Shown one piece after another: positions 1,018 through 23,263 of a DNA stretch of 64,000 nt. A model generated the notes under the pieces. That model did not search any database, had not been told where the DNA came from, and was given only the letters and a program-made list of their open reading frames with translations. The stretch is from a virus (taxonomy: Duplodnaviria; Heunggongvirae; Uroviricota; Caudoviricetes). Position 1 is the stretch's first letter; every line of letters starts with the position of its first letter. A program made the position numbers and the translations under genes. The stretch is from positions 1-64,000 of the IMG/VR virus record IMGVR_UViG_3300037258_000931; one strand, 5' to 3'.

Positions 1018-1093
1018 GCCGGCGTAGCTCAACTGGCAGAGCTGCTGTTTTGTGAACAGCCCGTTGCAGGTTCGACTCCTGCCGCCGGCTCCA
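1018..1093 (+). tRNA. tRNA-Thr (anticodon TGT)
   Basis: Acceptor GCCGGCG/CGCCGGC, TAGCTCAACTGGCAGAGC D-arm, anticodon stem GCTGT/ACAGC loop TTTGTGA (G37 unusual), T-arm GCAGG-TTCGACT-CCTGC, CCA. Confidence 0.6.
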
Positions 1094-4894: not shown

Positions 4895-5255
4895 GTCGCT
4901 GCCCTGCGGGTCGTGCACGGCTCTGTGCTGCGGCCCGGTTTCTCTGTCTCGCGATCGGCTGGTAAAGATCGAGACCTATATTGCGCAGATGCCGGCGCCG
5001 GAGCGCAACCGGTTGAGGAGGCAGAAGCGCGGACCGCTGGATTGCGGTTTCCTGGACATGAGCAACCATCGCTGTGCCATCTATCCGGTGCGGCCATGGG
5101 TGTGCGAAGCCTTCGGACGTGTGGAGGGGATGCGGTGCCCGAAGGTTGCGAAGCTGGTGCAGATTATTCCCGCGTTTCTGGCCGACCAGGCGGTAAGGGA
5201 TGAGGGCGCGAGTGGGATCGTCGGCAACTCCGGCGAATATCTGTGGCGTAAATAA
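4887..5255 (+). CDS. YkgJ/UPF0153-like Cys-rich (CxxCxxCC) metal-chelating domain protein
   Basis: 122 aa; CGSCTALCC motif near the N-terminus plus additional Cys/His. Confidence 0.45.
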   Translation: MIESLPCGSCTALCCGPVSLSRDRLVKIETYIAQMPAPERNRLRRQKRGPLDCGFLDMSNHRCAIYPVRPWVCEAFGRVEGMRCPKVAKLVQIIPAFLADQAVRDEGASGIVGNSGEYLWRK

Positions 5256-7510: not shown

Positions 7511-7585
7511 GCCGGTATAGCTCAAGCGCAGAGCACTCGACCGATAATCGAGAGGTTGCAGCCTCAGAAGCTGCTACCGGCACCA
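7511..7585 (+). tRNA. tRNA-Ile (anticodon GAT)
   Basis: Acceptor GCCGGTA/TACCGGC, anticodon stem CTCGA/TCGAG loop CCGATAA (C33), T-arm GCAGC-CTCAGAA-GCTGC, CCA. Confidence 0.6.
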
Positions 7586-7937: not shown

Positions 7938-8012
7938 GCGAGCGTGGTATAGCGGCTGGTGCCCTGGGCCTCCAACCCAGAGACGCGGGTTCGACTCCCG
8001 CCGCTCGCTCCA
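7938..8012 (+). tRNA. tRNA-Gly (anticodon TCC)
   Basis: Acceptor GCGAGCG/CGCTCGC, anticodon stem CTGGG/CCCAG loop CCTCCAA (C33), T-arm GCGGG-TTCGACT-CCCGC, CCA. Confidence 0.6.
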
Positions 8013-8027
8013 TCATTCGAGGTAGGG

Positions 8028-8405
8028 ATGACAAACAAACGCGCTCCTTCTGTATCGAGTTGGCATGATATCCCGGACTCGGTTGTAGATGAGTTTAGTA
8101 AAAAGGTTCGGCAGCTTCAGCGAGAGATGATTCCGCTCGATGGCGATGGAGATATAGCTGTCGAGATAATCATTGTCGACCGGAGGAAGTTTGAGCCACT
8201 TCACTTCCAACCTATACCCTATAACCACCCGCCTTACGGAACGAAATGGACGCCAGAAGAAGAGGCTGCTGTCCATGAGGAGCGATTGCGCTGGCTATCC
8301 TGCAACGCGGATATGGCAAATCGTTCGCTTGAGACTTTTCTGTCTCTGGAACTATATCGCCTGGCTTCTGAGCGTGAAAAAGGTGCCAAAAACTTTCAAA
8401 AATAG
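8028..8405 (+). CDS. hypothetical protein (lower-GC segment)
   Basis: ATG right after tRNA-Gly; 125 aa. Confidence 0.4.
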   Translation: MTNKRAPSVSSWHDIPDSVVDEFSKKVRQLQREMIPLDGDGDIAVEIIIVDRRKFEPLHFQPIPYNHPPYGTKWTPEEEAAVHEERLRWLSCNADMANRSLETFLSLELYRLASEREKGAKNFQK

Positions 8406-8645
8406 CGCGCATGATTTTACATAGGACTATGATATAGTCGTTTTCACGTGCCAGTTCTCCGCTTGAAAACCCCGCGTACCATCCCCCGCCTGCAACTCTC
8501 TCCTTCTTTCCCCAATCTGCCTCGCAAGCTGGCCCCCGGGCCGGGAGGAATCCCGGCCGCGTGTTTCCAAAGCAACAATTTGCGCCCGTGGGCCGCAAAG
8601 GGGTAGACTCGGCTTCGATTCCAAGTTCTATTTTGAGGAGCAACG

Positions 8646-9407
8646 ATGACCAAGATGCATGAGCTGCTGGCCGTACAGACGAACCTGAACGGCCAGGCAA
8701 CCAAGACCCGCACCGGCTTGATGGACACCTTCAGAACCAAGCGGCACCTGTTTGAGAAGAAGGTGAAGGCGTTTCAGCCTCTCGGCGAAGGCGCCGACCT
8801 GACCATCGAAGAGCAGTCCGATATCCAGACCACGGTGCCTAAGGAGATCGAGTGGCTGAAGGGCCACCTGGTGAAACAAATCGATGTGGGTTTGCGCGTA
8901 GACGTGGGCAACCGGATCGCCGAGGCTGACGTGGTGGACGAAGAAGACACCAAGATCCTGGCCAAAATGCCGGCCACCACGCTGCTGTGGCTGGAAAAAC
9001 GGGTGCAGGAGGTAAAGGAGCTGATCGAGGCCATTCACACCCTGGACCCGGCCAAGGGATTTACCGAGGACCGGGATGCGGGCGTGGGGTACTGGAAGGC
9101 GCGCGAAGTGAAGAAGGAGCGCACCAAGAAAAAGAAAGTGGTGATCGTGAAGTACGACGCTGTGGATAAGCACCCGGCGCAGACCGAGCTGGTGGACGAG
9201 GACGTGGTGGTAGGCACGATTCGCGAGCAGGAGTGGAGCGCGCTGATCACGCCGGCGATGAAAGCGGAGCTGTTGAACCGGGCGGAGATGCTGATTCGGG
9301 CGGTGGCCAAGGCTCGCTCCAAGGCCAACGAGCAGGAAGTGGACATCAAGGACGCCAAGATCGGAGACGTGCTGCTTGACTACGTCTTCAAGCCTCTGCT
9401 AGGGTAA
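8646..9407 (+). CDS. hypothetical protein
   Basis: 253 aa; upstream promoter-like TTGCGC..17..TAGACT and RBS GGAGGAG; charged, coiled-coil-like composition. Confidence 0.45.
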   Translation: MTKMHELLAVQTNLNGQATKTRTGLMDTFRTKRHLFEKKVKAFQPLGEGADLTIEEQSDIQTTVPKEIEWLKGHLVKQIDVGLRVDVGNRIAEADVVDEEDTKILAKMPATTLLWLEKRVQEVKELIEAIHTLDPAKGFTEDRDAGVGYWKAREVKKERTKKKKVVIVKYDAVDKHPAQTELVDEDVVVGTIREQEWSALITPAMKAELLNRAEMLIRAVAKARSKANEQEVDIKDAKIGDVLLDYVFKPLLG

Positions 9408-9558
9408 TCGCGGGTGGGGTCGGCCTTGACCGGCCGGCCCGATTCCAGGTTAAGGCTGAGGCTGAGATTCAGCGGACGCGCGAGCGCGAGCGTGAGGCTC
9501 AGGTTGACACCCCAGGCTTATCGCGGAGAACGATAGCTCGACAGACGAGACTCTTTTT

Positions 9559-9595
9559 ACGGTGGTCGTCGGTTCGAATCCGGCGGGAGCCCCCA
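9559..9595 (+). tRNA. orphan tRNA 3' half (anticodon-stem 3' strand, variable loop, T-arm, acceptor 3' strand, CCA)
   Basis: ACGGT-GGTC-GTCGG-TTCGAAT-CCGGC-GGGAGCC-C-CCA; no matching 5' half upstream; perfectly complementary to the 5' half found 11 nt downstream. Confidence 0.3.
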
Positions 9596-9605
9596 AAATA
9601 TTCAT

Positions 9606-9642
9606 GGCTCCCTAGCTCAGCGGTAGAGCAGCCGTCTCAGGT
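9606..9642 (+). tRNA. orphan tRNA 5' half (acceptor 5' strand, D-arm, anticodon-stem 5' strand and loop)
   Basis: GGCTCCC-TA-GCTC-AGCGGT-AGAGC-A-GCCGT-CTCAGGT; no T-arm or acceptor 3' strand downstream; GGCTCCC pairs with GGGAGCC of the upstream 3' half; candidate anticodon CAG (Leu) if the loop is CTCAGGT. Confidence 0.3.
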
Positions 9643-9683
9643 TAAAAGTTTCGGGTTGAAGAGCGAGGCGTTGCCGCACCGTA

Positions 9684-9757
9684 CTTGAGATAGCTCAGAT
9701 TGGTAGAGCATTCGACTTGTAATCGAAGGGTCTCTGGTTCAAATCCAGATCTCAAAC
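9684..9757 (+). tRNA. tRNA-Thr-like (anticodon TGT), C1:A72 mismatch, no encoded CCA
   Basis: Acceptor CTTGAGA/TCTCAAA (terminal C-A mismatch), TAGCTCAGATTGGTAGAGC, anticodon stem TTCGA/TCGAA loop CTTGTAA, T-arm TCTGG-TTCAAAT-CCAGA. Confidence 0.45.
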
Positions 9758-9821
9758 ATTGGGGCCGTCCGCGTGGTAGCGGGCGGCCCTTCATATTTTG
9801 GCAAGCAACCGAGGAGGCGCG

Positions 9822-10535
9822 ATGCTGAAAACTGTGACCATGACCGGGGCGGACGACGATACCCGCGTCGAAGATCTGGTGGGTTTGTCGAAGCGGTTTC
9901 CTTTTGTGGAGTGGGGGATTCTGGCCAGTCGGATGCAGATGGGCGCCAAGCGCTTTCCTACCGCTGAATGGGCTAATCGCTTTGCCGGTTTTGCGTCTGA
10001 AAATGAACTGAGGGTGAGCATGCACCTGTGCGGGGGGTGGGTGCGGGAGCTGCTGTTGGGAGAGTTGAAATGGTCGGAGCTACCGCACGTTTTGCTGGGG
10101 GTTGCGCAGCGAGTGCAGATCAACACCCACGCCGAGGCTCATGTGTCGCGTACGGCGATGATGGCTAATCTGATCGGCTGGCCGCTGAAGACCTTCATCT
10201 TCCAGTGGGATGGGGTGAACGACCATCTGGCCTATGCCGCGCAAGCCTACGGGATACGGGTGAACGCTTTATTCGACACCAGCCATGGGGCTGGCGCTCT
10301 GGCTGGCAGTTGGCCCCGCTCTGTGCTTTCTCTGCCTTGCGGCTATGCGGGGGGTCTGAGCGCTGACAACGTGGCCGAGCAGCTTGGGGAGATCGAAAAG
10401 GCGAGCGGAGGCTTAGACTACTGGATCGACATGGAGGGCCGGATTCGCGACCGCAACGGCTGCTTCGATCTGGAAAAGGTTGAACAGGTGTTGACGATCT
10501 GCGAACCTCTGGTGGCGAGGGAACCTCCCTTATAA
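9822..10535 (+). CDS. hypothetical protein
   Basis: about 238 aa from ATG after SD AGGAGG (the ORF track uses an upstream TTG); motifs VEWGILAS, DTSHGAG, CGYAGGLSADN; no family assigned. Confidence 0.4.
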   Translation: MLKTVTMTGADDDTRVEDLVGLSKRFPFVEWGILASRMQMGAKRFPTAEWANRFAGFASENELRVSMHLCGGWVRELLLGELKWSELPHVLLGVAQRVQINTHAEAHVSRTAMMANLIGWPLKTFIFQWDGVNDHLAYAAQAYGIRVNALFDTSHGAGALAGSWPRSVLSLPCGYAGGLSADNVAEQLGEIEKASGGLDYWIDMEGRIRDRNGCFDLEKVEQVLTICEPLVAREPPL

Positions 10536-10577
10536 AATATCTTGCGCCGAAAAGGGGCAATAGGATAAATTGCGCGC

Positions 10578-11387
10578 ATGGCGACACAGTCAACCTGGAT
10601 GGCGGTGCAGGAGCTGCACGAGGTGGCGCGACCCCGCGAGGATCTGGCTGACGTGCGCAATCCGGATGACTCGCACGATCCAGCTCAAGGCGACTTCAAG
10701 TTTGATCCGCCGCGCGGGGTGCGGACCGAGCTGATCTGCTCCTACGAGATTCCGCGGATGATGTACAAGGTGATGCCTCATCGTTCCGCGGCCAAGAAGC
10801 TGGAAACGTTAGGCATGCTGATCTGGTACGGGAATCTGCGGTGCTCGATGAGCCGCAAGCGGAGGACGCCGATGGATGTGGATGCTCTGGTGAAGCGCTG
10901 GCACGAGGTGGTGGTGGGGCTGGCGATTGCCCATGACAAGGACGCAGCCGACCGCTACGAGGCGGCCATCGAGGAGTGCCTGACCCCGATTCTGGCGGCG
11001 CCGATCAAGCAGGTGCGAGAGTTCTACCCGAAGCTGCTGGAGGCGCTCAAGCAAGACCAGCGGGTGCCGTTTCTGGTGTGGCGCAGCTATGAGGTTTGGG
11101 TGAACCAGGTGATTGCCAAGGCTCCGGATGAGGATATTAAACAGTTGAAGACCGACCTGGCCCGGGAGATTACCGAGATGGTGGAGCGGGAGGTCAAGGA
11201 CCAGCTTCCCCAGGCCATGATCCGGGCGCTGCAGTGGCGGTCGCCTTCGCAGCTTGAAGAGGTGAAAAAGGTGGTGGCGCGGGAGCAGGCGGCAGGGCGG
11301 GGGGTGCGGCTGAAGGGCAGGGAGAGCTGCCTGTTTCTGGAGGCCGGCGGGGAAGAGGGCGAGCCGGAAGTGTGCGTGCAGATCTGA
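10578..11387 (+). CDS. hypothetical protein
   Basis: 269 aa, coding-like composition, ends at a solo repeat arm. Confidence 0.45.
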   Translation: MATQSTWMAVQELHEVARPREDLADVRNPDDSHDPAQGDFKFDPPRGVRTELICSYEIPRMMYKVMPHRSAAKKLETLGMLIWYGNLRCSMSRKRRTPMDVDALVKRWHEVVVGLAIAHDKDAADRYEAAIEECLTPILAAPIKQVREFYPKLLEALKQDQRVPFLVWRSYEVWVNQVIAKAPDEDIKQLKTDLAREITEMVEREVKDQLPQAMIRALQWRSPSQLEEVKKVVAREQAAGRGVRLKGRESCLFLEAGGEEGEPEVCVQI

Positions 11388-11388
11388 G

Positions 11389-11450
11389 GAACAGGGGTCA
11401 GAGAACAGGTTTCAGAGAACAGAGAACAGAGATCAGAGATCAGTAGTCAG
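11389..11450. repeat. GGGATCAG-family solo left arm (degenerate)
   Basis: aacaggggtcagagaacaggtttcagagaacagagaacagagatcagagatcag. Confidence 0.6.
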
Positions 11451-13449: not shown

Positions 13450-15687
13450 ATGATTGAGCGGTTGACGGTGGGCAAAGATGGCGCGGTGGAAGTGCATCTG
13501 ACTGGCATCTCTTTGCAGGCGACCAAGGCGTTTACGCATGGCACGCTGGGGTTCGATCTTCAGGCGCGCACCGTGACTTTCGGCAAGCTGGCGCCGGTGG
13601 CGCTCCCCGCAGAACTGCAGCCGTCGGCGGGCGCCGCAGTGCATTTGCGGCTGCTGGGCCCGGATGGAGAGCTGCGCAAGCAGACGCGATCTGGAACGTG
13701 GACGGCGGTGGGCAAGCAGCCGCATCTTTTGCGCATCGGCGGCCACGCGCAGACGGCGCGCAAGTTCCCGGCCGAGGAGGGCTGGAGCAACCGGACGTAC
13801 AAGTATCGCGCGTACTTCAGCCATCCCGGGGCCGAGACCGATGGGGAACTGCCGGAGTGGCTGCGCGGGTCGATCGCGCGGCAGCGGGCGTACTGGAATC
13901 GCCTGGCATGGCTGTGCCGGGATGCGCGCCGCAAGTGCTCGACGGAGTCTCCAGAGCAAGTGGCGGAGTTTGTAGGTCAAGTGATTGTGCCGGCGATCGA
14001 TGCGTTTAACGAGGCGATCGGGCCGGATCGGCGTCGCGCCAAGGAGCGGCTCAAGCATCCGCAGAAGCTGAAGGACCGGCCCGGGATCGACGGGTTGTGG
14101 GCCTTTGCCGGGCTGCTGCGCGCCTGGGAGGGGAAGGGGCATCCGGTTCCCGAGGGGCTGATGGACCGGGTGCTCGCGTTTGCCAAACAGTTCCAGCCCG
14201 ATTACGCTCCGCTGAACGAGTTTATGCGAGATCTGAGCCAGATTGCGGCGGCGGAGGCCGAGCGGCTGGAGCTGAAATGGTTCGAGGTGCGGCCGGAGCT
14301 GAGCAGCTTCAAAGCCACCCTTGACCGTCGCAGGACTGTGCAGGCGTCCTGGTCGGACGGCTGGCCGATGCTACGTTTTGCGCAGCTCGGGAAGGATCTC
14401 GACTGGGGGCTGCATTACTACCTCAGGAAGGCTGGGGTGGGCACGGAGTTACTGGAGACCGGCAAAGGGGTGCCGGGGCTCAGTCTCGGGGCGCCGCTGA
14501 GCCACGCTGAAACCGGCCATCCTCACCTTTGTGGGGCGGCGGCCAAGCGGGCGCTGCGCGAGGCCCGGATTTCGATTCCTGGGGAAGGGAAAGACCGCTG
14601 GATCTTCCGGTTTGCGGTGCTGGAACATCGGCCGCTGCCGGCCCATGCGCATGTGAAGGAGTGGAAGCTGGTGTTCAAGGGAGGCGAGCTGTGGCTGTGC
14701 CTGGTGGTGGAGATGCAGCAGCCGCTGCCGGAGCCCAGCGCCCAGGCCGCGGGGCTGGATATCGGCTGGCGGCGGACGGCGGAGGGCATTCGCTTCGGGA
14801 CTCTCTACGAGCCGTTGGCGGGGACGGTGCGGCTGCTGGAGATGGATTTCGGGCGCTCGCCGCGCGATCCTGCCGACAGGGTACCGTTCCGGATCGATCT
14901 GGGACCGAGCCGGTGGCAGAAGCGCAACCAGAAACGGCTGTTTCCGGAGCCGGTGGCTGAGGGGGAGAGCGCGGCGGCGCGCCCGCATGACGGGGCGGAA
15001 GTGCCAGGGCTTTTAGAGACTGGGATTCAACTGCAGACGCGGCGCGACTACGAGAAGGATACGGTGAAGATTCTGCTGCGGCGGTATCTGGGAGAACGAA
15101 CTCCGCCGTGGCTGGACAGGGCCGGACTCTCGGGATTGCGCAGGCTGCGGGAAGAGTTGAAAGACGATGCCGGCGCGTGGGCTATTTTAGAGGCGTGGCG
15201 GTTGAAGGACGACGAGATTGGGGCATTGACCGCTTTTTATTTTGCGCGCTCGACGCGGCGCATCGAGTACGGGCATCTGCAGGTGGCGCACGATGTCTGC
15301 CGGCACCTGCGCGACCAGGGAGTATCCCGGTTGGCAGTGGAAACCAGTTTTCTAGCCAAGCTGGCGCAGAACCAGAGCAGTGAGGTCCCGGTAGCCCTGA
15401 AGCGTTCGCAGAAATACCGGCAGGTTGCGGCACTGGGAAAGTTTGTGGCCGTGCTCCGGAATACGGCGATCAAGTACGGCGTGGCCGTGGATGAGCATGA
15501 CGCGGCCAATACAACCCGGATCTGCCGGTACTGCAACCATCTGAATGAGGCGACAGAGCGGGAGAAGTACAACTGCGCGGCCTGCGGCCGGGAGCTGAAG
15601 CAGGATGAAAATGCGGCGGTGAACCTGTCGCGGTTCGCGGCCGATCCGGAGCTTGCGGAGATGGCGTTGCAGGCGGGGAGGAAGTGA
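13450..15687 (+). CDS. cas12: Cas12/TnpB-family RuvC nuclease (745 aa), putative type V CRISPR effector
   Basis: The C-terminal third carries RuvC-I (AAGLDIGWRR, about aa 436), RuvC-II (RLAVETSF, about aa 629), a CxxC...CxxC zinc finger (CRYCNH...CAACG) and RuvC-III (DENAAVNL, about aa 718), in the order typical of Cas12/TnpB; a CRISPR array starts 56 nt downstream. Confidence 0.75.
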   Translation: MIERLTVGKDGAVEVHLTGISLQATKAFTHGTLGFDLQARTVTFGKLAPVALPAELQPSAGAAVHLRLLGPDGELRKQTRSGTWTAVGKQPHLLRIGGHAQTARKFPAEEGWSNRTYKYRAYFSHPGAETDGELPEWLRGSIARQRAYWNRLAWLCRDARRKCSTESPEQVAEFVGQVIVPAIDAFNEAIGPDRRRAKERLKHPQKLKDRPGIDGLWAFAGLLRAWEGKGHPVPEGLMDRVLAFAKQFQPDYAPLNEFMRDLSQIAAAEAERLELKWFEVRPELSSFKATLDRRRTVQASWSDGWPMLRFAQLGKDLDWGLHYYLRKAGVGTELLETGKGVPGLSLGAPLSHAETGHPHLCGAAAKRALREARISIPGEGKDRWIFRFAVLEHRPLPAHAHVKEWKLVFKGGELWLCLVVEMQQPLPEPSAQAAGLDIGWRRTAEGIRFGTLYEPLAGTVRLLEMDFGRSPRDPADRVPFRIDLGPSRWQKRNQKRLFPEPVAEGESAAARPHDGAEVPGLLETGIQLQTRRDYEKDTVKILLRRYLGERTPPWLDRAGLSGLRRLREELKDDAGAWAILEAWRLKDDEIGALTAFYFARSTRRIEYGHLQVAHDVCRHLRDQGVSRLAVETSFLAKLAQNQSSEVPVALKRSQKYRQVAALGKFVAVLRNTAIKYGVAVDEHDAANTTRICRYCNHLNEATEREKYNCAACGRELKQDENAAVNLSRFAADPELAEMALQAGRK

Positions 15688-22022: not shown

Positions 22023-22075
22023 CCCTAGAGTTAGATTATGGCGCATTGCGCCAATTTAACTGTGAGGGGGAGTCC

Positions 22076-23263
22076 GTGAAGAGACCGAGGAAGCGGGTAG
22101 AGCAGTTTGGGTACGTGGAAGGACCTAAAAACGGGTCGTATTTTCTGCGTTATTGGGGCTCGCCGGATGGTGAGGGAAAGAGAAGCCGGTGCGCGATTGA
22201 AATTGGCTTGAAGGGGCAGTTCAACAGCAAAGAGGAAGCTTCTTATTCGATCGAAGCAGCGAAACTGCGGCGTCGCATCAACGCCGGAGCGATTGGCCGC
22301 ACCGTGGGCCAGATTGCGGCGGAGTTTGAGCGCGACGCGATGCCAAAACGGGCTAATACTCGCGCTACCGATCTGACCTGCCTGCGGCATATCGTGAAGA
22401 AGTGGGATACAGAGCCCATTGCCGGGCTGACCGAGACCACGGAATCGAAGCGGCTGGAGGGCTGGCTGGACCGCATGCGCAGGTTCGATGGCTCGCAGGA
22501 GCTGAGCTATTCGGCCAAGAAGAATGTGCGCCAGCAGATGGCGACTCTGTTTGATTTTGCGATGAAGCAGGGTTACATTCCTACCAACGTAAACCCCATG
22601 GAACGGGTTCACCTGGTGCAGCGGGAAGAGCCCCGGCGCCGGCAAAAGTTATCGCCTAAGCTGCTGGATCTGTTTTTTGCCAGCCCGGATATCCCGGAGT
22701 ACGTAAAGGTCATCGCGCACGTCGCCAAACGCACCGGGTTCCGCATCAGCGAAATTCTAGGACTGAAAAAAGAGGATTTTGATCTGGACAGCAATTTGGT
22801 AACGGTGCGGCGTCGGATCTATCGGGAGGAGATCGCGGGACCTAAAAGCAAGAAGTCCGGAGACCCGGTGCCCTTCGACGAGGAGCTGTTTCGGATTCTA
22901 AGCGCGTGGCTGAAGTCGCCGGGCAACTACCCCAACTTCGAAGGCTGGCTGTTTTGTTCACCCATGACGCGCCGCCCCTACTCCGCCGATGGGATGCAGT
23001 TGAGCCACCTCCGCCCCTTCGGGCTACGGCACGGGATCGAGAAGTTCGGCTGGCACAGTTTCCGGCACGGCTTTAAGGACTACCTGAAAGAAGCGGAGAC
23101 GCCGCTCGATGAGATCAAGCGCCTGATGCGGCACTCCAAGATCCAGACCACTGACGGGTATGGCTCTGAAAGCAGTATGGAGACGTTGCGCCGGCGCCAG
23201 GCCGCTGCGATTGCGCTGATGGAACGGCCAGCGGTTGAACCGAAGAAGCGGAAGTGGGCGTGA
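22076..23263 (+). CDS. int: tyrosine integrase (site-specific recombinase)
   Basis: GTG start after GAGGGGGAG; C-terminal catalytic region with RISEILGL, HSFRHGF, RLMRHS...TDGYG (R..H..R..Y). Confidence 0.8.
   Translation: MKRPRKRVEQFGYVEGPKNGSYFLRYWGSPDGEGKRSRCAIEIGLKGQFNSKEEASYSIEAAKLRRRINAGAIGRTVGQIAAEFERDAMPKRANTRATDLTCLRHIVKKWDTEPIAGLTETTESKRLEGWLDRMRRFDGSQELSYSAKKNVRQQMATLFDFAMKQGYIPTNVNPMERVHLVQREEPRRRQKLSPKLLDLFFASPDIPEYVKVIAHVAKRTGFRISEILGLKKEDFDLDSNLVTVRRRIYREEIAGPKSKKSGDPVPFDEELFRILSAWLKSPGNYPNFEGWLFCSPMTRRPYSADGMQLSHLRPFGLRHGIEKFGWHSFRHGFKDYLKEAETPLDEIKRLMRHSKIQTTDGYGSESSMETLRRRQAAAIALMERPAVEPKKRKWA

What the first reader, a model, noticed from the sequence alone, without database searches (positions are those of the whole stretch)
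9513..9645. Candidate permuted or split tRNA: a 3' half (with CCA) lies 11 nt upstream of its matching 5' half
9559-9595 reads as a tRNA 3' half: anticodon-stem strand ACGGT, variable loop, T-arm GTCGG-TTCGAAT-CCGGC, acceptor GGGAGCC, C, CCA. 9606-9642 reads as a tRNA 5' half: acceptor GGCTCCC, TA, GCTC-AGCGGT-AGAGC, A, anticodon-stem strand GCCGT, loop CTCAGGT. Acceptor strands are perfectly complementary (7/7) and the anticodon-stem strands pair 5/5 with one G-U. Neither half has a partner in the normal position. Circularly permuted and split tRNA genes are known from a few algae and archaea; I know of none in bacteriophages. Alternatives are a rearranged relic of tandem tRNA copies, or an integration scar.
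Basis: seen in the sequence. Interest (0 to 1): 0.6.

Follow-up and report, generated by a model that had tools for sequence, protein, structure and literature searches.

The report
Phage tRNA-mimic Y-like RNA, not tRNA
The "back-to-front tRNA" is real, but it is the tRNA-shaped head of a roughly 165-base non-coding RNA of the bacterial Y-RNA (YrlA) type, and in phages it almost always sits just after an uncharacterised gene (DUF7873), a pairing I found in no paper.

Summary
Window 9559-9642 holds a T arm, a 7-bp acceptor stem whose strands are joined by C-CCA plus 10 nt, a D arm and a short anticodon-like stem, in permuted order. It is neither a tRNA gene nor a relic. ARAGORN calls nothing here. 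Rfam's only match is YrlA, the Y-RNA-like tRNA mimic (36.9 bits, E 9e-6, below the gathering score).

The RNA extends to about 9517-9683 as a long helix formed by its 5' and 3' ends, capped by the tRNA-like head. There is no closed anticodon loop.

The element lies 110 nt after a DUF7873 gene (8646-9407). A covariance model finds it within 900 nt downstream of DUF7873 homologues in 72 of 80 IMG/VR phage loci. It also follows the gene in the four cultured phages examined (Rhizobium, Arthrobacter, Gordonia, Vibrio). All four helices covary. N-CCA follows the acceptor in 56 of 80 elements.

The usual YrlA partner, Ro60/TROVE, is absent from the window and from most carrier phages.

Likely mechanism (inferred): RNase P and 3' trimming give a two-piece, CCA-ended tRNA mimic, as shown experimentally for Mycobacterium smegmatis YrlA. 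This mimic probably works with DUF7873.

Verdict: a new variant of a known kind, of moderate interest.

The parts
8646..9407 (+). DUF7873 protein gene (253 aa), the conserved upstream partner of the RNA
   Evidence: Pfam PF25283, E 3.6e-59. There are 697 homologous protein clusters. The homologue is followed by the RNA in 72 of 80 IMG/VR loci and in the four cultured phages examined. AF2 model pLDDT 85.8, with no informative fold match.
9408..9516 (+). Leader between the gene and the RNA: a GC-rich hairpin (about 9411-9441) and a cluster of YTNAGRYT repeats (9450, 9456, 9462, 9498)
   Evidence: The hairpin is conserved with some covariation in six close relatives. The motif occurs 26 times in 64 kb, 6 of them within 250 nt here. 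No promoter-like or terminator-like site lies between the gene and the RNA.
9517..9683 (+). Whole Y-RNA-like transcript (approximate ends): a 5'/3' rod capped by a tRNA-like domain
   Evidence: RNAalifold on six close relatives, MFE fold, and a Rfam YrlA match covering the full model at 9545-9657. The 3' end is inferred from the start of tRNA-Thr at 9684.
9544..9551 (+). GACGAGAC, 5' strand of the rod helix, at the position of YrlA's GNCGAA (Ro60-binding) motif
   Evidence: The Rfam alignment puts the model's 5' motif here. Relatives L127 and L131 read GGCGAAAC at this place. The helix covaries with the 3' strand AAAAGUUUCG at about 9646-9655.
9560..9563 (+). Anticodon-like stem, 5'-proximal strand CGGU (pairs with 9631-9634)
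   Evidence: Four pairs, all with compensatory changes, 90% of cells paired in 33 sequences. This stem was not a selection criterion of my scan.
9564..9567 (+). Variable-loop equivalent GGUC. C9567 is the C48 partner of G15 (Levitt pair).
   Evidence: C is nearly invariant at this column and G at the position-15 column.
9568..9584 (+). T arm GUCGG-UUCGAAU-CCGGC
   Evidence: TTC.A is fixed in the alignment because my scan's pattern required it, so it is not independent evidence of conservation. The stem covaries.
9585..9595 (+). Acceptor 3' strand GGGAGCC, discriminator C, encoded CCA
   Evidence: 7/7 pairing with 9606-9612. N-CCA follows the acceptor in 56 of 80 unique family members (chance expectation 1/64).
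9596..9605 (+). A/U-rich linker AAAUAUUCAU. It is at once the 3' trailer and the 5' leader. Predicted RNase P cut after U9605.
   Evidence: Median A+T of the linkers is 78%. Position -1 is U in 46 of 80 and G1:C72 occurs in 60 of 80. Cleavage is inferred by analogy with M. smegmatis YrlA (PMC4201824).
9606..9629 (+). Acceptor 5' strand GGCUCCC, U8 A9, D arm GCUC-AGCGGUA-GAGC
   Evidence: U8, A14 and G18 invariant, G19 nearly invariant. The D stem is 96% paired with compensatory changes and was not a selection criterion.
9631..9634 (+). Anticodon-like stem, 3'-proximal strand GCCG
9635..9643 (+). UCUCAGGUU: conserved single-stranded motif (family consensus A-U-Y-A-R-R-N-U) in the internal loop after the stem
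   Evidence: Column frequencies in 73 unique elements. The same 8-mer recurs at 9498-9505. Its role is unexplained.
9684..9757 (+). tRNA-Thr(UGU) directly downstream. Its 5' processing would set the 3' end of the RNA.
   Evidence: ARAGORN and Rfam. A tRNA follows the element directly in many relatives. tRNA-Thr(tgt) also lies downstream in RHph_TM30.
9761..9790 (+). Terminator-like hairpin plus T run that closes the transcription unit

Best explanation
Window 9517-9683 encodes a non-coding RNA of about 165 nt of the YrlA (bacterial Y-RNA-like) type. Its two ends pair into a long, interrupted helix. The far end of that helix opens into a tRNA-like domain: a 4-bp anticodon-like stem, a 4-nt variable loop, a T arm, a 7-bp acceptor stem and a D arm. 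Because the RNA's ends lie where the anticodon loop would be, the gene reads as a 3' half followed by a 5' half.

It is transcribed with the upstream DUF7873 gene and the downstream tRNA-Thr (inferred). RNase P cleavage at tRNA-Thr frees its 3' end (inferred). RNase P also cuts between U9605 and G9606, and 3' exonucleases trim the A/U-rich linker back to the encoded CCA (inferred by analogy with M. smegmatis YrlA, where this was shown). The product is a two-piece tRNA mimic held together by the acceptor stem and the rod.

This mimic does not decode. It acts as an RNA scaffold or decoy that presents a tRNA elbow and acceptor end to tRNA-binding proteins. Its stem is bound by a partner protein, most likely the product of the always-adjacent DUF7873 gene and possibly also Ro60 (inferred from gene linkage only).
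For: - Rfam's only non-tRNA match with E below 0.9 in 8000-11000 is YrlA, covering the full model at 9545-9657 (36.9 bits, E 9e-6). Elements right next to a TROVE gene in Rhizobium phage RHph_TM30 score the same (36-37 bits).
- The MFE fold and RNAalifold give a rod plus four tRNA-like helices.
- In 33 sequences, 97% of cells pair and 20 of 20 pairs show compensatory changes. No shuffle out of 500 reaches this, and slid controls pair only 34-45%.
- The tRNA tertiary nucleotides are kept: U8, A14, G18 and G19 are invariant or nearly so, and G15:C48 nearly invariant. T54, T55, C56 and A58 were required by the scan, so they are not independent evidence.
- Covariance model R1 scores the window at 90.2 bits. 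It finds a hit of at least 39 bits within 900 nt downstream of the DUF7873 gene, on the same strand, in 72 of 80 IMG/VR loci, at a median of 154 nt.
- The same pairing is seen in RHph_TM30, Arthrobacter phage Mimi, Gordonia phage Ziko and Vibrio phage D505.
- The other flanking genes are not conserved.
- N-CCA follows the acceptor in 56 of 80 elements, U is at -1 in 46 of 80, and G1:C72 occurs in 60 of 80. These are the features of an RNase P substrate.
- M. smegmatis YrlA, which has a 7-bp acceptor stem, is cut by RNase P and carries CCA in vivo (PMC4201824).
- No terminator lies between the gene and the RNA, and one follows tRNA-Thr.
Against: - The Rfam score is below the gathering threshold (36.9 against 69).
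- The window lacks an exact GNCGAA motif; it has GACGAGAC.
- No Ro60/TROVE gene is found in the 64-kb window. TROVE lies within 2.5 kb in only 2 of 80 related loci.
- DUF7873 has no recognisable RNA-binding fold, and its pI is 6.3.
- There are no expression or processing data. Cleavage, CCA exposure and protein binding are all inferred.
- The T and acceptor stems were selection criteria in my scan, so their covariation is partly built in.
Confidence: 0.75

Rival explanations
1. It is a classical Ro60-bound YrlA. The RNA works only with a Ro60/Rsr protein, either phage-encoded outside the 64-kb window or supplied by the host, tethering it to an exoribonuclease such as PNPase. The DUF7873 linkage is accessory or unrelated.
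For: - The architecture is YrlA-like, and the GNCGAA-like sequence sits at the right position (exact in relatives L127 and L131).
- A TROVE gene lies directly next to the pair in L147 and L148 and 5.7 kb away in RHph_TM30.
- The window covers only 64 kb of a 132.7-kb contig.
Against: - No TROVE gene is found in the window.
- Among complete phage genomes, those with DUF7873 (73 records) and those with TROVE (86 and 72 records from two different queries) overlap, by genus tally, essentially only for the Rhizobium phages.
- Gordonia phage Ziko has no Ro-like gene annotated in the 58.7 kb of its 68.9-kb genome that I viewed, and it is not among the 8 Gordonia records hit by an actinophage Ro query.
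- Linkage to DUF7873 is near-universal, while linkage to TROVE within 2.5 kb is about 3%.
Confidence: 0.3
2. It is a genuine circularly permuted tRNA gene. The transcript is circularised at its ends and opened at the acceptor linker to give a decoding tRNA with a CAG (Leu) anticodon.
For: - The permuted order is present, with encoded CCA and a full set of elbow nucleotides.
- The sequence after the stem reads CUCAGGU, and the family consensus U-Y-A-R gives only Leu anticodons.
Against: - The 3' part of an anticodon loop is missing. The stem runs on into a covarying rod of about 25 bp with internal loops, not a bulge-helix-bulge junction.
- The body is class I, with a 4-nt variable loop, and the discriminator is mostly C, which does not fit bacterial tRNA-Leu (established knowledge of tRNA identity).
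- 24 of 80 family members lack N-CCA directly after the acceptor; about a dozen of these have long closed loops, often starting UCUGAG.
- The same YTNAGRYT motif is repeated in the leader, so it is not specific to an anticodon position.
- The splicing endonuclease needed in algae and archaea is not known in bacteria or phages (established knowledge).
Confidence: 0.03
3. It is a relic of rearranged tandem tRNA copies, or an integration (att) scar, without function.
For: - The region is a tRNA array, and the contig encodes an integrase at 22046-23263.
- Junctions of tandem tRNAs do give weak matches to the model, at 20-38 bits.
Against: - The element is conserved with compensatory changes in all four helices and keeps a fixed position after DUF7873 in 72 of 80 diverse contigs. 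About half of the 60 loci scanned have no tRNA gene within 2.5 kb.
- It scores 90 bits, against 38 bits or less for true tRNA junctions.
Confidence: 0.01
4. It is a decoy that soaks up host tRNA-targeting defence nucleases or other tRNA-binding factors during infection. It acts alone or is loaded by DUF7873, independently of any Y-RNA-type tethering.
For: - The family is essentially phage-specific, with one hit in 185,579 genomes (the peptide patterns used came from the close subfamily, so distant homologues could be missed).
- It often lies in phage tRNA arrays.
- It keeps the tRNA elbow, the CCA end and an anticodon-loop-like motif.
Against: - There is no direct evidence.
- PADLOC gives no hit for DUF7873 or its neighbours.
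- About half of the carriers scanned have no tRNA genes nearby.
Confidence: 0.12
5. It is a permuted two-piece tmRNA-like RNA.
For: - The gene order (acceptor piece ending in CCA, short spacer, 5' acceptor strand) matches two-piece tmRNA genes.
- The Vibrio phage D505 homologue gives a weak partial match to beta_tmRNA.
Against: - ARAGORN, which detects permuted tmRNAs, finds none.
- No tmRNA family matches at E 10 or better in the window region.
- Only about 50 nt follow the D arm before the next tRNA, which leaves no room for a tag reading frame or pseudoknots.
- A true D stem is present.
Confidence: 0.02

Closest known systems
YrlA, the bacterial Y-RNA-like tRNA mimic (Rfam RF02553; Chen et al. 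2014, PMC4201824), especially the Mycobacterium smegmatis form
   Same: - The 5' and 3' ends form a stem.
- The tRNA-like domain runs in the order variable region, T arm, acceptor-like stem, D arm.
- The tRNA tertiary nucleotides, including the G15:C48 pair, are conserved.
- As in M. smegmatis YrlA, the acceptor stem is 7 bp, which is what makes that RNA an RNase P substrate that ends in CCA.
- A GNCGAA-like sequence lies on the 5' strand of the stem.
- The family was already known in 22 phages.
   Different: - It is not next to a Ro60/rsr gene, but next to DUF7873 in nearly every case.
- CCA is genome-encoded rather than partly added after cleavage.
- The Ro-binding motif is degenerate in the window.
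- The Rfam score is about half the gathering score.
- There is an extra conserved A-U-Y-A-R-R-N-U motif, with repeats of it in the leader.
Ro60-adjacent Y-RNA-like arrays in phages (for example Rhizobium phage RHph_TM30, Thermus phage phiLo Yrl1/Yrl2, PMC12135203)
   Same: - They are phage-borne and sit in or near tRNA regions.
- In RHph_TM30 the Ro-adjacent units have the same T arm, acceptor hairpin and D arm core, score up to 57 bits with my model, and two of them also carry N-CCA.
   Different: - Those units start with a GTTGCGA / CGAA motif and lie directly upstream of the TROVE gene.
- In the same genome, the DUF7873-linked copy has a different 5' motif and lies 5.7 kb away.
Circularly permuted tRNA genes of Cyanidioschyzon merolae and some archaea
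   Same: The 3' half lies upstream of the 5' half, joined by a short linker between the acceptor strands.
   Different: - Those have a bulge-helix-bulge junction that is spliced to close a normal anticodon loop, and they yield decoding tRNAs.
- Here there is a long rod, no closed anticodon loop and no known splicing endonuclease.
Two-piece (permuted) tmRNA of alpha- and beta-proteobacteria and cyanobacteria
   Same: - The gene is permuted so that the CCA-ending acceptor piece comes before the 5' acceptor strand.
- Processing gives a two-piece RNA with a tRNA-like domain.
   Different: - There is no tag reading frame and there are no pseudoknots.
- A real D stem is present.
- It is about half the size.

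Membership tests
YrlA / bacterial Y-RNA-like (RF02553) | A 5'/3' terminal stem that carries a tRNA-like domain in the order variable region, T arm, acceptor-like stem, D arm | tested here: met
   Rfam alignment over model positions 1-114, MFE folds, RNAalifold and pair counts with covariation in all four helices and in the rod.
YrlA / bacterial Y-RNA-like (RF02553) | Conserved tRNA tertiary nucleotides (U8, A14, G18 G19, T54 T55 C56, A58, Levitt pair 15:48) | tested here: met
   U8, A14 and G18 are invariant, and G19, G15 and C48 nearly invariant, in A5. T54, T55, C56 and A58 are also present, but the scan pattern required them.
YrlA / bacterial Y-RNA-like (RF02553) | GNCGAAN0-1G motif near the 5' end (proposed Ro60 contact) | tested here: inconclusive
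   The window has GACGAGAC at 9544-9551, where Rfam aligns the motif. That is one or two mismatches. Relatives L127 and L131 have GGCGAAAC; others differ, with compensating changes on the opposite strand.
YrlA / bacterial Y-RNA-like (RF02553) | Encoded within about 4 kb of a Ro60/rsr (TROVE) gene on the same strand | tested here: not met
   No TROVE domain in any ORF of 400 aa or more in the window, and no tblastn hit. TROVE lies within 2.5 kb in 2 of 80 relatives and 5.7 kb away in RHph_TM30. The remaining 68 kb of the source contig could not be read.
YrlA / bacterial Y-RNA-like (RF02553) | Score at or above Rfam's gathering threshold (69 bits) | tested here: not met
   36.9 bits. Units directly upstream of the TROVE gene in RHph_TM30 also score only 36-37 bits, so the threshold misses phage members.
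YrlA / bacterial Y-RNA-like (RF02553) | Bound by Ro60/Rsr in vivo | not testable with these tools
   This needs immunoprecipitation or EMSA.
Circularly permuted tRNA gene | The 3' half lies upstream of the 5' half, joined at the acceptor ends by a short linker | tested here: met
Circularly permuted tRNA gene | The transcript ends form a bulge-helix-bulge junction whose splicing closes a 7-nt anticodon loop and gives a complete tRNA | tested here: not met
   The ends form a covarying rod with asymmetric internal loops. No 3' part of an anticodon loop precedes 9559. ARAGORN calls no tRNA here in the window or at these elements in the 60 related loci scanned.
Two-piece tmRNA | A tag reading frame with resume codon and pseudoknots in the coding piece | tested here: not met
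   ARAGORN finds no tmRNA. No tmRNA family matches at E 10 or better. Only about 50 nt lie between the D arm and the next tRNA.
DUF7873-linked tRNA-like RNA (grouping proposed here) | Lies within 900 nt downstream of a DUF7873 gene on the same strand | tested here: met
   The window RNA starts 110 nt after the stop codon. The same holds in 72 of 80 IMG/VR loci and in four cultured phages.

The most novel reading that the evidence does not exclude
DUF7873 and this RNA form a previously undescribed phage ribonucleoprotein that does not need Ro60. RNase P turns the RNA into a two-piece tRNA mimic with a free CCA end, which may even be aminoacylated. The DUF7873 protein uses it to capture or divert a host tRNA-binding machine (a nuclease, a modification or repair enzyme, a translation factor or a tRNA-targeting defence system). 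The repeated YUNAGRYU motifs would be its binding sites.
Probability: 0.3. Interest if true: 0.75.

Novelty: new variant of a known kind. Interest (0 to 1): 0.55.

Why it matters
Why bacterial Y RNAs carry a tRNA-like module is still an open question; Chen et al. 2014 say they do not know what it interacts with. This family keeps that module, together with an encoded CCA end and RNase P-substrate features. It is tied not to Ro60 but to one small protein of unknown fold, in hundreds of phage contigs and in cultured phages of Gordonia, Arthrobacter, Rhizobium, Vibrio, Klebsiella and Serratia.

That offers genetically tractable systems (for example the SEA-PHAGES Gordonia phages) in which to ask what a tRNA mimic does during infection, and it names a candidate partner protein. 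It also shows that Rfam's YrlA threshold misses phage members, and that such elements can be mistaken for permuted or broken tRNA genes during annotation.

Tried and rejected
- Megablast of 8600-11400 against phage genomes: no match.
- A single-protein scan of IMG/VR with the window's DUF7873 protein: no confirmed relative. The alignment-based scan worked.
- Reading more of the 132.7-kb source contig: only a 4.8-kb Logan contig is on record, and two edge ORFs were not on record. Whether Ro60 is encoded outside the window therefore stays open.
- The genome-contig scan found one MAG contig only.
- The folding-energy z-score is not significant. This is usual for tRNA-like RNAs, and I did not use it as evidence.
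- The idea that CUCAGGU is a true Leu anticodon loop was dropped, because the same motif is repeated in the leader and sits in an internal loop.

Full report
**1. The observation**

- ACGGT and GGTC, then T arm GTCGG-TTCGAAT-CCGGC;
- acceptor strand GGGAGCC, C, CCA;
- a 10-nt linker AAATATTCAT;
- GGCTCCC, TA, D arm GCTC-AGCGGTA-GAGC, A, GCCGT, CTCAGGT.

ARAGORN finds 17 ordinary tRNA genes between 196 and 9757 but nothing at this site. So neither half has a partner in the normal position.

**2. What Rfam says**

An E-value scan of 8000-11000 gives, apart from tRNA-Thr at 9684-9757, only one match with E below 0.9. It is RF02553 YrlA ('Y RNA-like') at 9545-9657, covering the full model at 36.9 bits and E 9e-6, below the gathering score of 69.

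YrlA RNAs are bacterial Y RNAs. Their 5' and 3' ends form a stem that binds Ro60/Rsr. The other end is a tRNA-like domain laid out as variable region, T arm, acceptor-like stem-loop, D arm (Chen et al. 2014, PMC4201824). That is the 'permuted' order seen here.

In M. smegmatis the acceptor stem has 7 bp. That RNA is cut by RNase P and ends in CCA in vivo.

**3. Extent and fold of the RNA**

The MFE fold of 9517-9683 gives a long, interrupted helix made by the two ends, capped by the four tRNA-like helices.

RNAalifold on the window plus five close relatives predicts the same rod, with compensatory changes in its helices. The outermost pairs are 9520-9526 with 9673-9678.

The RNA therefore runs from about 9517 to 9683. 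tRNA-Thr(UGU) starts at 9684, and a terminator-like hairpin follows at 9761-9790. No promoter-like or terminator-like site lies between the upstream gene and the RNA.

There is no closed anticodon loop. After the anticodon-like stem, the 3' strand reads UCUCAGGUU inside an internal loop.

**4. Relatives and gene linkage**

The gene just upstream (8646-9407) is a DUF7873 protein (Pfam E 3.6e-59). Its homologues occur in 73 phage records, from hosts in Vibrio, Rhizobium, Gordonia, Klebsiella, Serratia, Arthrobacter, Ralstonia and others.

I examined four cultured phages. In each, the gene is followed by the same kind of element:

| Phage | Locus and position |
|---|---|
| Rhizobium phage RHph_TM30 | L121 6926-7065, acceptor CACCGCA + C + CCA, with tRNA-Thr(tgt) further downstream (7512-7585) |
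| Arthrobacter phage Mimi | L123 4824 and 4978 |
| Gordonia phage Ziko | L124 about 5005 and 5153 |
| Vibrio phage D505 | L125 4968 |

An alignment-based scan of IMG/VR gave 345 relatives, of which 80 loci were kept. A plain structural scan finds the element just downstream of the gene, on the same strand, in 70 of the 80. The scan required a T arm, a 7-nt strand, a loop and a perfectly complementary 7-nt strand.

A covariance model of the 90-nt core (R1, built from A5) scores the window at 90.2 bits (the window's own element was among the 32 training sequences). It finds a hit of at least 39 bits within 900 nt downstream in 72 of 80 loci, at a median distance of 154 nt. Two of the eight misses have almost no downstream flank (about 110-135 nt). 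Junctions of ordinary tandem tRNAs score only 20-38 bits.

The window's other neighbouring genes have no homologues in any of these loci. About half of the 60 loci scanned have no tRNA gene within 2.5 kb. Only the protein gene and the RNA travel together.

DUF7873 is almost absent from 185,579 bacterial and archaeal genomes, with one MAG contig as the only hit (the patterns used came from the close subfamily, so distant homologues could be missed).

**5. Structure support**

On 33 family members, 97% of cells form standard pairs and all 20 pairs show compensatory changes. None of 500 shuffles reaches the observed values, and slid controls pair only 34-45%.

The T and acceptor stems were search criteria, so their figures are partly built in. 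The D stem (96% paired) and the anticodon-like stem (90% paired) were not.

U8, A14 and G18 are invariant, and G19 and the G15:C48 pair nearly invariant. T54, T55, C56 and A58 are also fixed, but my scan required them. The tRNA elbow is therefore preserved.

**6. The CCA end**

N-CCA follows the 7-bp acceptor directly in 56 of 80 unique elements, against a chance expectation of 1 in 64. The linker after it is A/U-rich (median 78%). The nucleotide before G+1 is U in 46 of 80, and pair 1:72 is G:C in 60 of 80.

By established knowledge of bacterial RNase P, these are the features of a good substrate. The remaining members mostly have longer, closed loops.

This pattern argues that most members are cut open to expose a CCA end, as shown for M. 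smegmatis YrlA. It also argues that decoding is not the shared function.

**7. Ro60**

No ORF of 400 aa or more in the window has a TROVE domain. tblastn with the RHph_TM30 TROVE protein finds nothing in the window.

Phage genomes with TROVE (86 records with a proteobacterial-phage query, 72 with an actinophage query) overlap the DUF7873 set, by genus tally, essentially only for the Rhizobium phages. Gordonia phage Ziko has no Ro-like gene annotated in the 58.7 kb of its 68.9-kb genome that I viewed, and it is not among the 8 Gordonia records hit by an actinophage Ro query.

The link to the Ro system is still not zero. A TROVE gene lies directly next to the pair in L147 and L148 and 5.7 kb away in RHph_TM30. 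In RHph_TM30 it is preceded by about eight Y-like units that share the same core; two of them also carry N-CCA.

The window's GACGAGAC (9544-9551) sits where Rfam aligns the GNCGAA Ro-binding motif. Two close relatives read GGCGAAAC there.

**8. The protein**

Its pI is 6.3. No paper in the searched library mentions DUF7873, and none links YrlA to such a gene.

**9. Interpretation**

The element is a YrlA-type tRNA-mimic RNA. It is not a permuted tRNA gene, a tmRNA or a relic.

It fails two of the family's operational criteria, namely adjacency to rsr and the Rfam threshold. However, Ro-adjacent phage units fail the threshold too. I therefore file it as a new variant of a known kind: a DUF7873-linked, CCA-encoding subfamily.

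Shown here:
- the sequence;
- the fold, supported by covariation;
- the gene linkage;
- conservation of the CCA end and of the RNase P-substrate features.

Inferred:
- co-transcription with DUF7873 and tRNA-Thr;
- RNase P cleavage and 3' trimming;
- binding by DUF7873 and/or Ro60;
- the scaffold or decoy role.

**10. Unexplained**

The motif YTNAGRYT is strongly clustered here, with 6 of its 26 + strand copies in the 64-kb window lying within 250 nt. Relatives carry similar repeats in the leader.

The copy after the anticodon-like stem corresponds to a family-wide A-U-Y-A-R-R-N-U. It may be a protein-binding site or a remnant of an anticodon loop.

Noticed in passing
window 13450-15687 (+): A 745-aa ORF with a C-terminal Cas12f1-like TNB domain (PF07282, E 1.4e-10). 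This is a TnpB/Cas12-like protein on a phage-like contig.
   Followed up: no
window 7511-7582 (+): Rfam calls a tRNA here (51.5 bits) that ARAGORN did not list.
   Followed up: no
window 9450-9505 and 9636-9643: A cluster of YTNAGRYT repeats (TTAAGGCT, CTGAGGCT, CTGAGATT, CTCAGGTT twice). Six of the 26 copies in 64 kb lie within 250 nt. Similar repeats sit in the leaders of close relatives (A7).
   Followed up: partly
L121 11300-12450 (Rhizobium phage RHph_TM30, MN988521.1 about 139226-140376): About eight tandem Y-RNA-like units, each starting with GTTGCGA, lie directly upstream of the TROVE gene. Several have the T arm, acceptor hairpin and D arm core, and two carry N-CCA.
   Followed up: partly
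L123 4824-4895 and 4964-5071; L124 about 4995-5076 and 5140-5253: Arthrobacter phage Mimi and Gordonia phage Ziko carry two tRNA-like elements in tandem after DUF7873. The first has N-CCA and a short linker. The second has a long closed loop.
   Followed up: partly
L147 1062-2372; L148 4606-5739: A TROVE/Ro60 gene lies immediately next to the DUF7873-RNA pair in two IMG/VR contigs, which hints at a functional tie between the two systems.
   Followed up: partly
L159 4086-4158; L183 5005-5395; L196 1658-2025: A tRNA with anticodon tta (suppressor-like) and two phage tmRNA genes lie close to DUF7873-RNA pairs.
   Followed up: no
window 1018-1093 and 9684-9757: There are two tRNA-Thr(tgt) genes in the same array. 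The second has no encoded CCA, unlike most tRNAs of the array.
   Followed up: no
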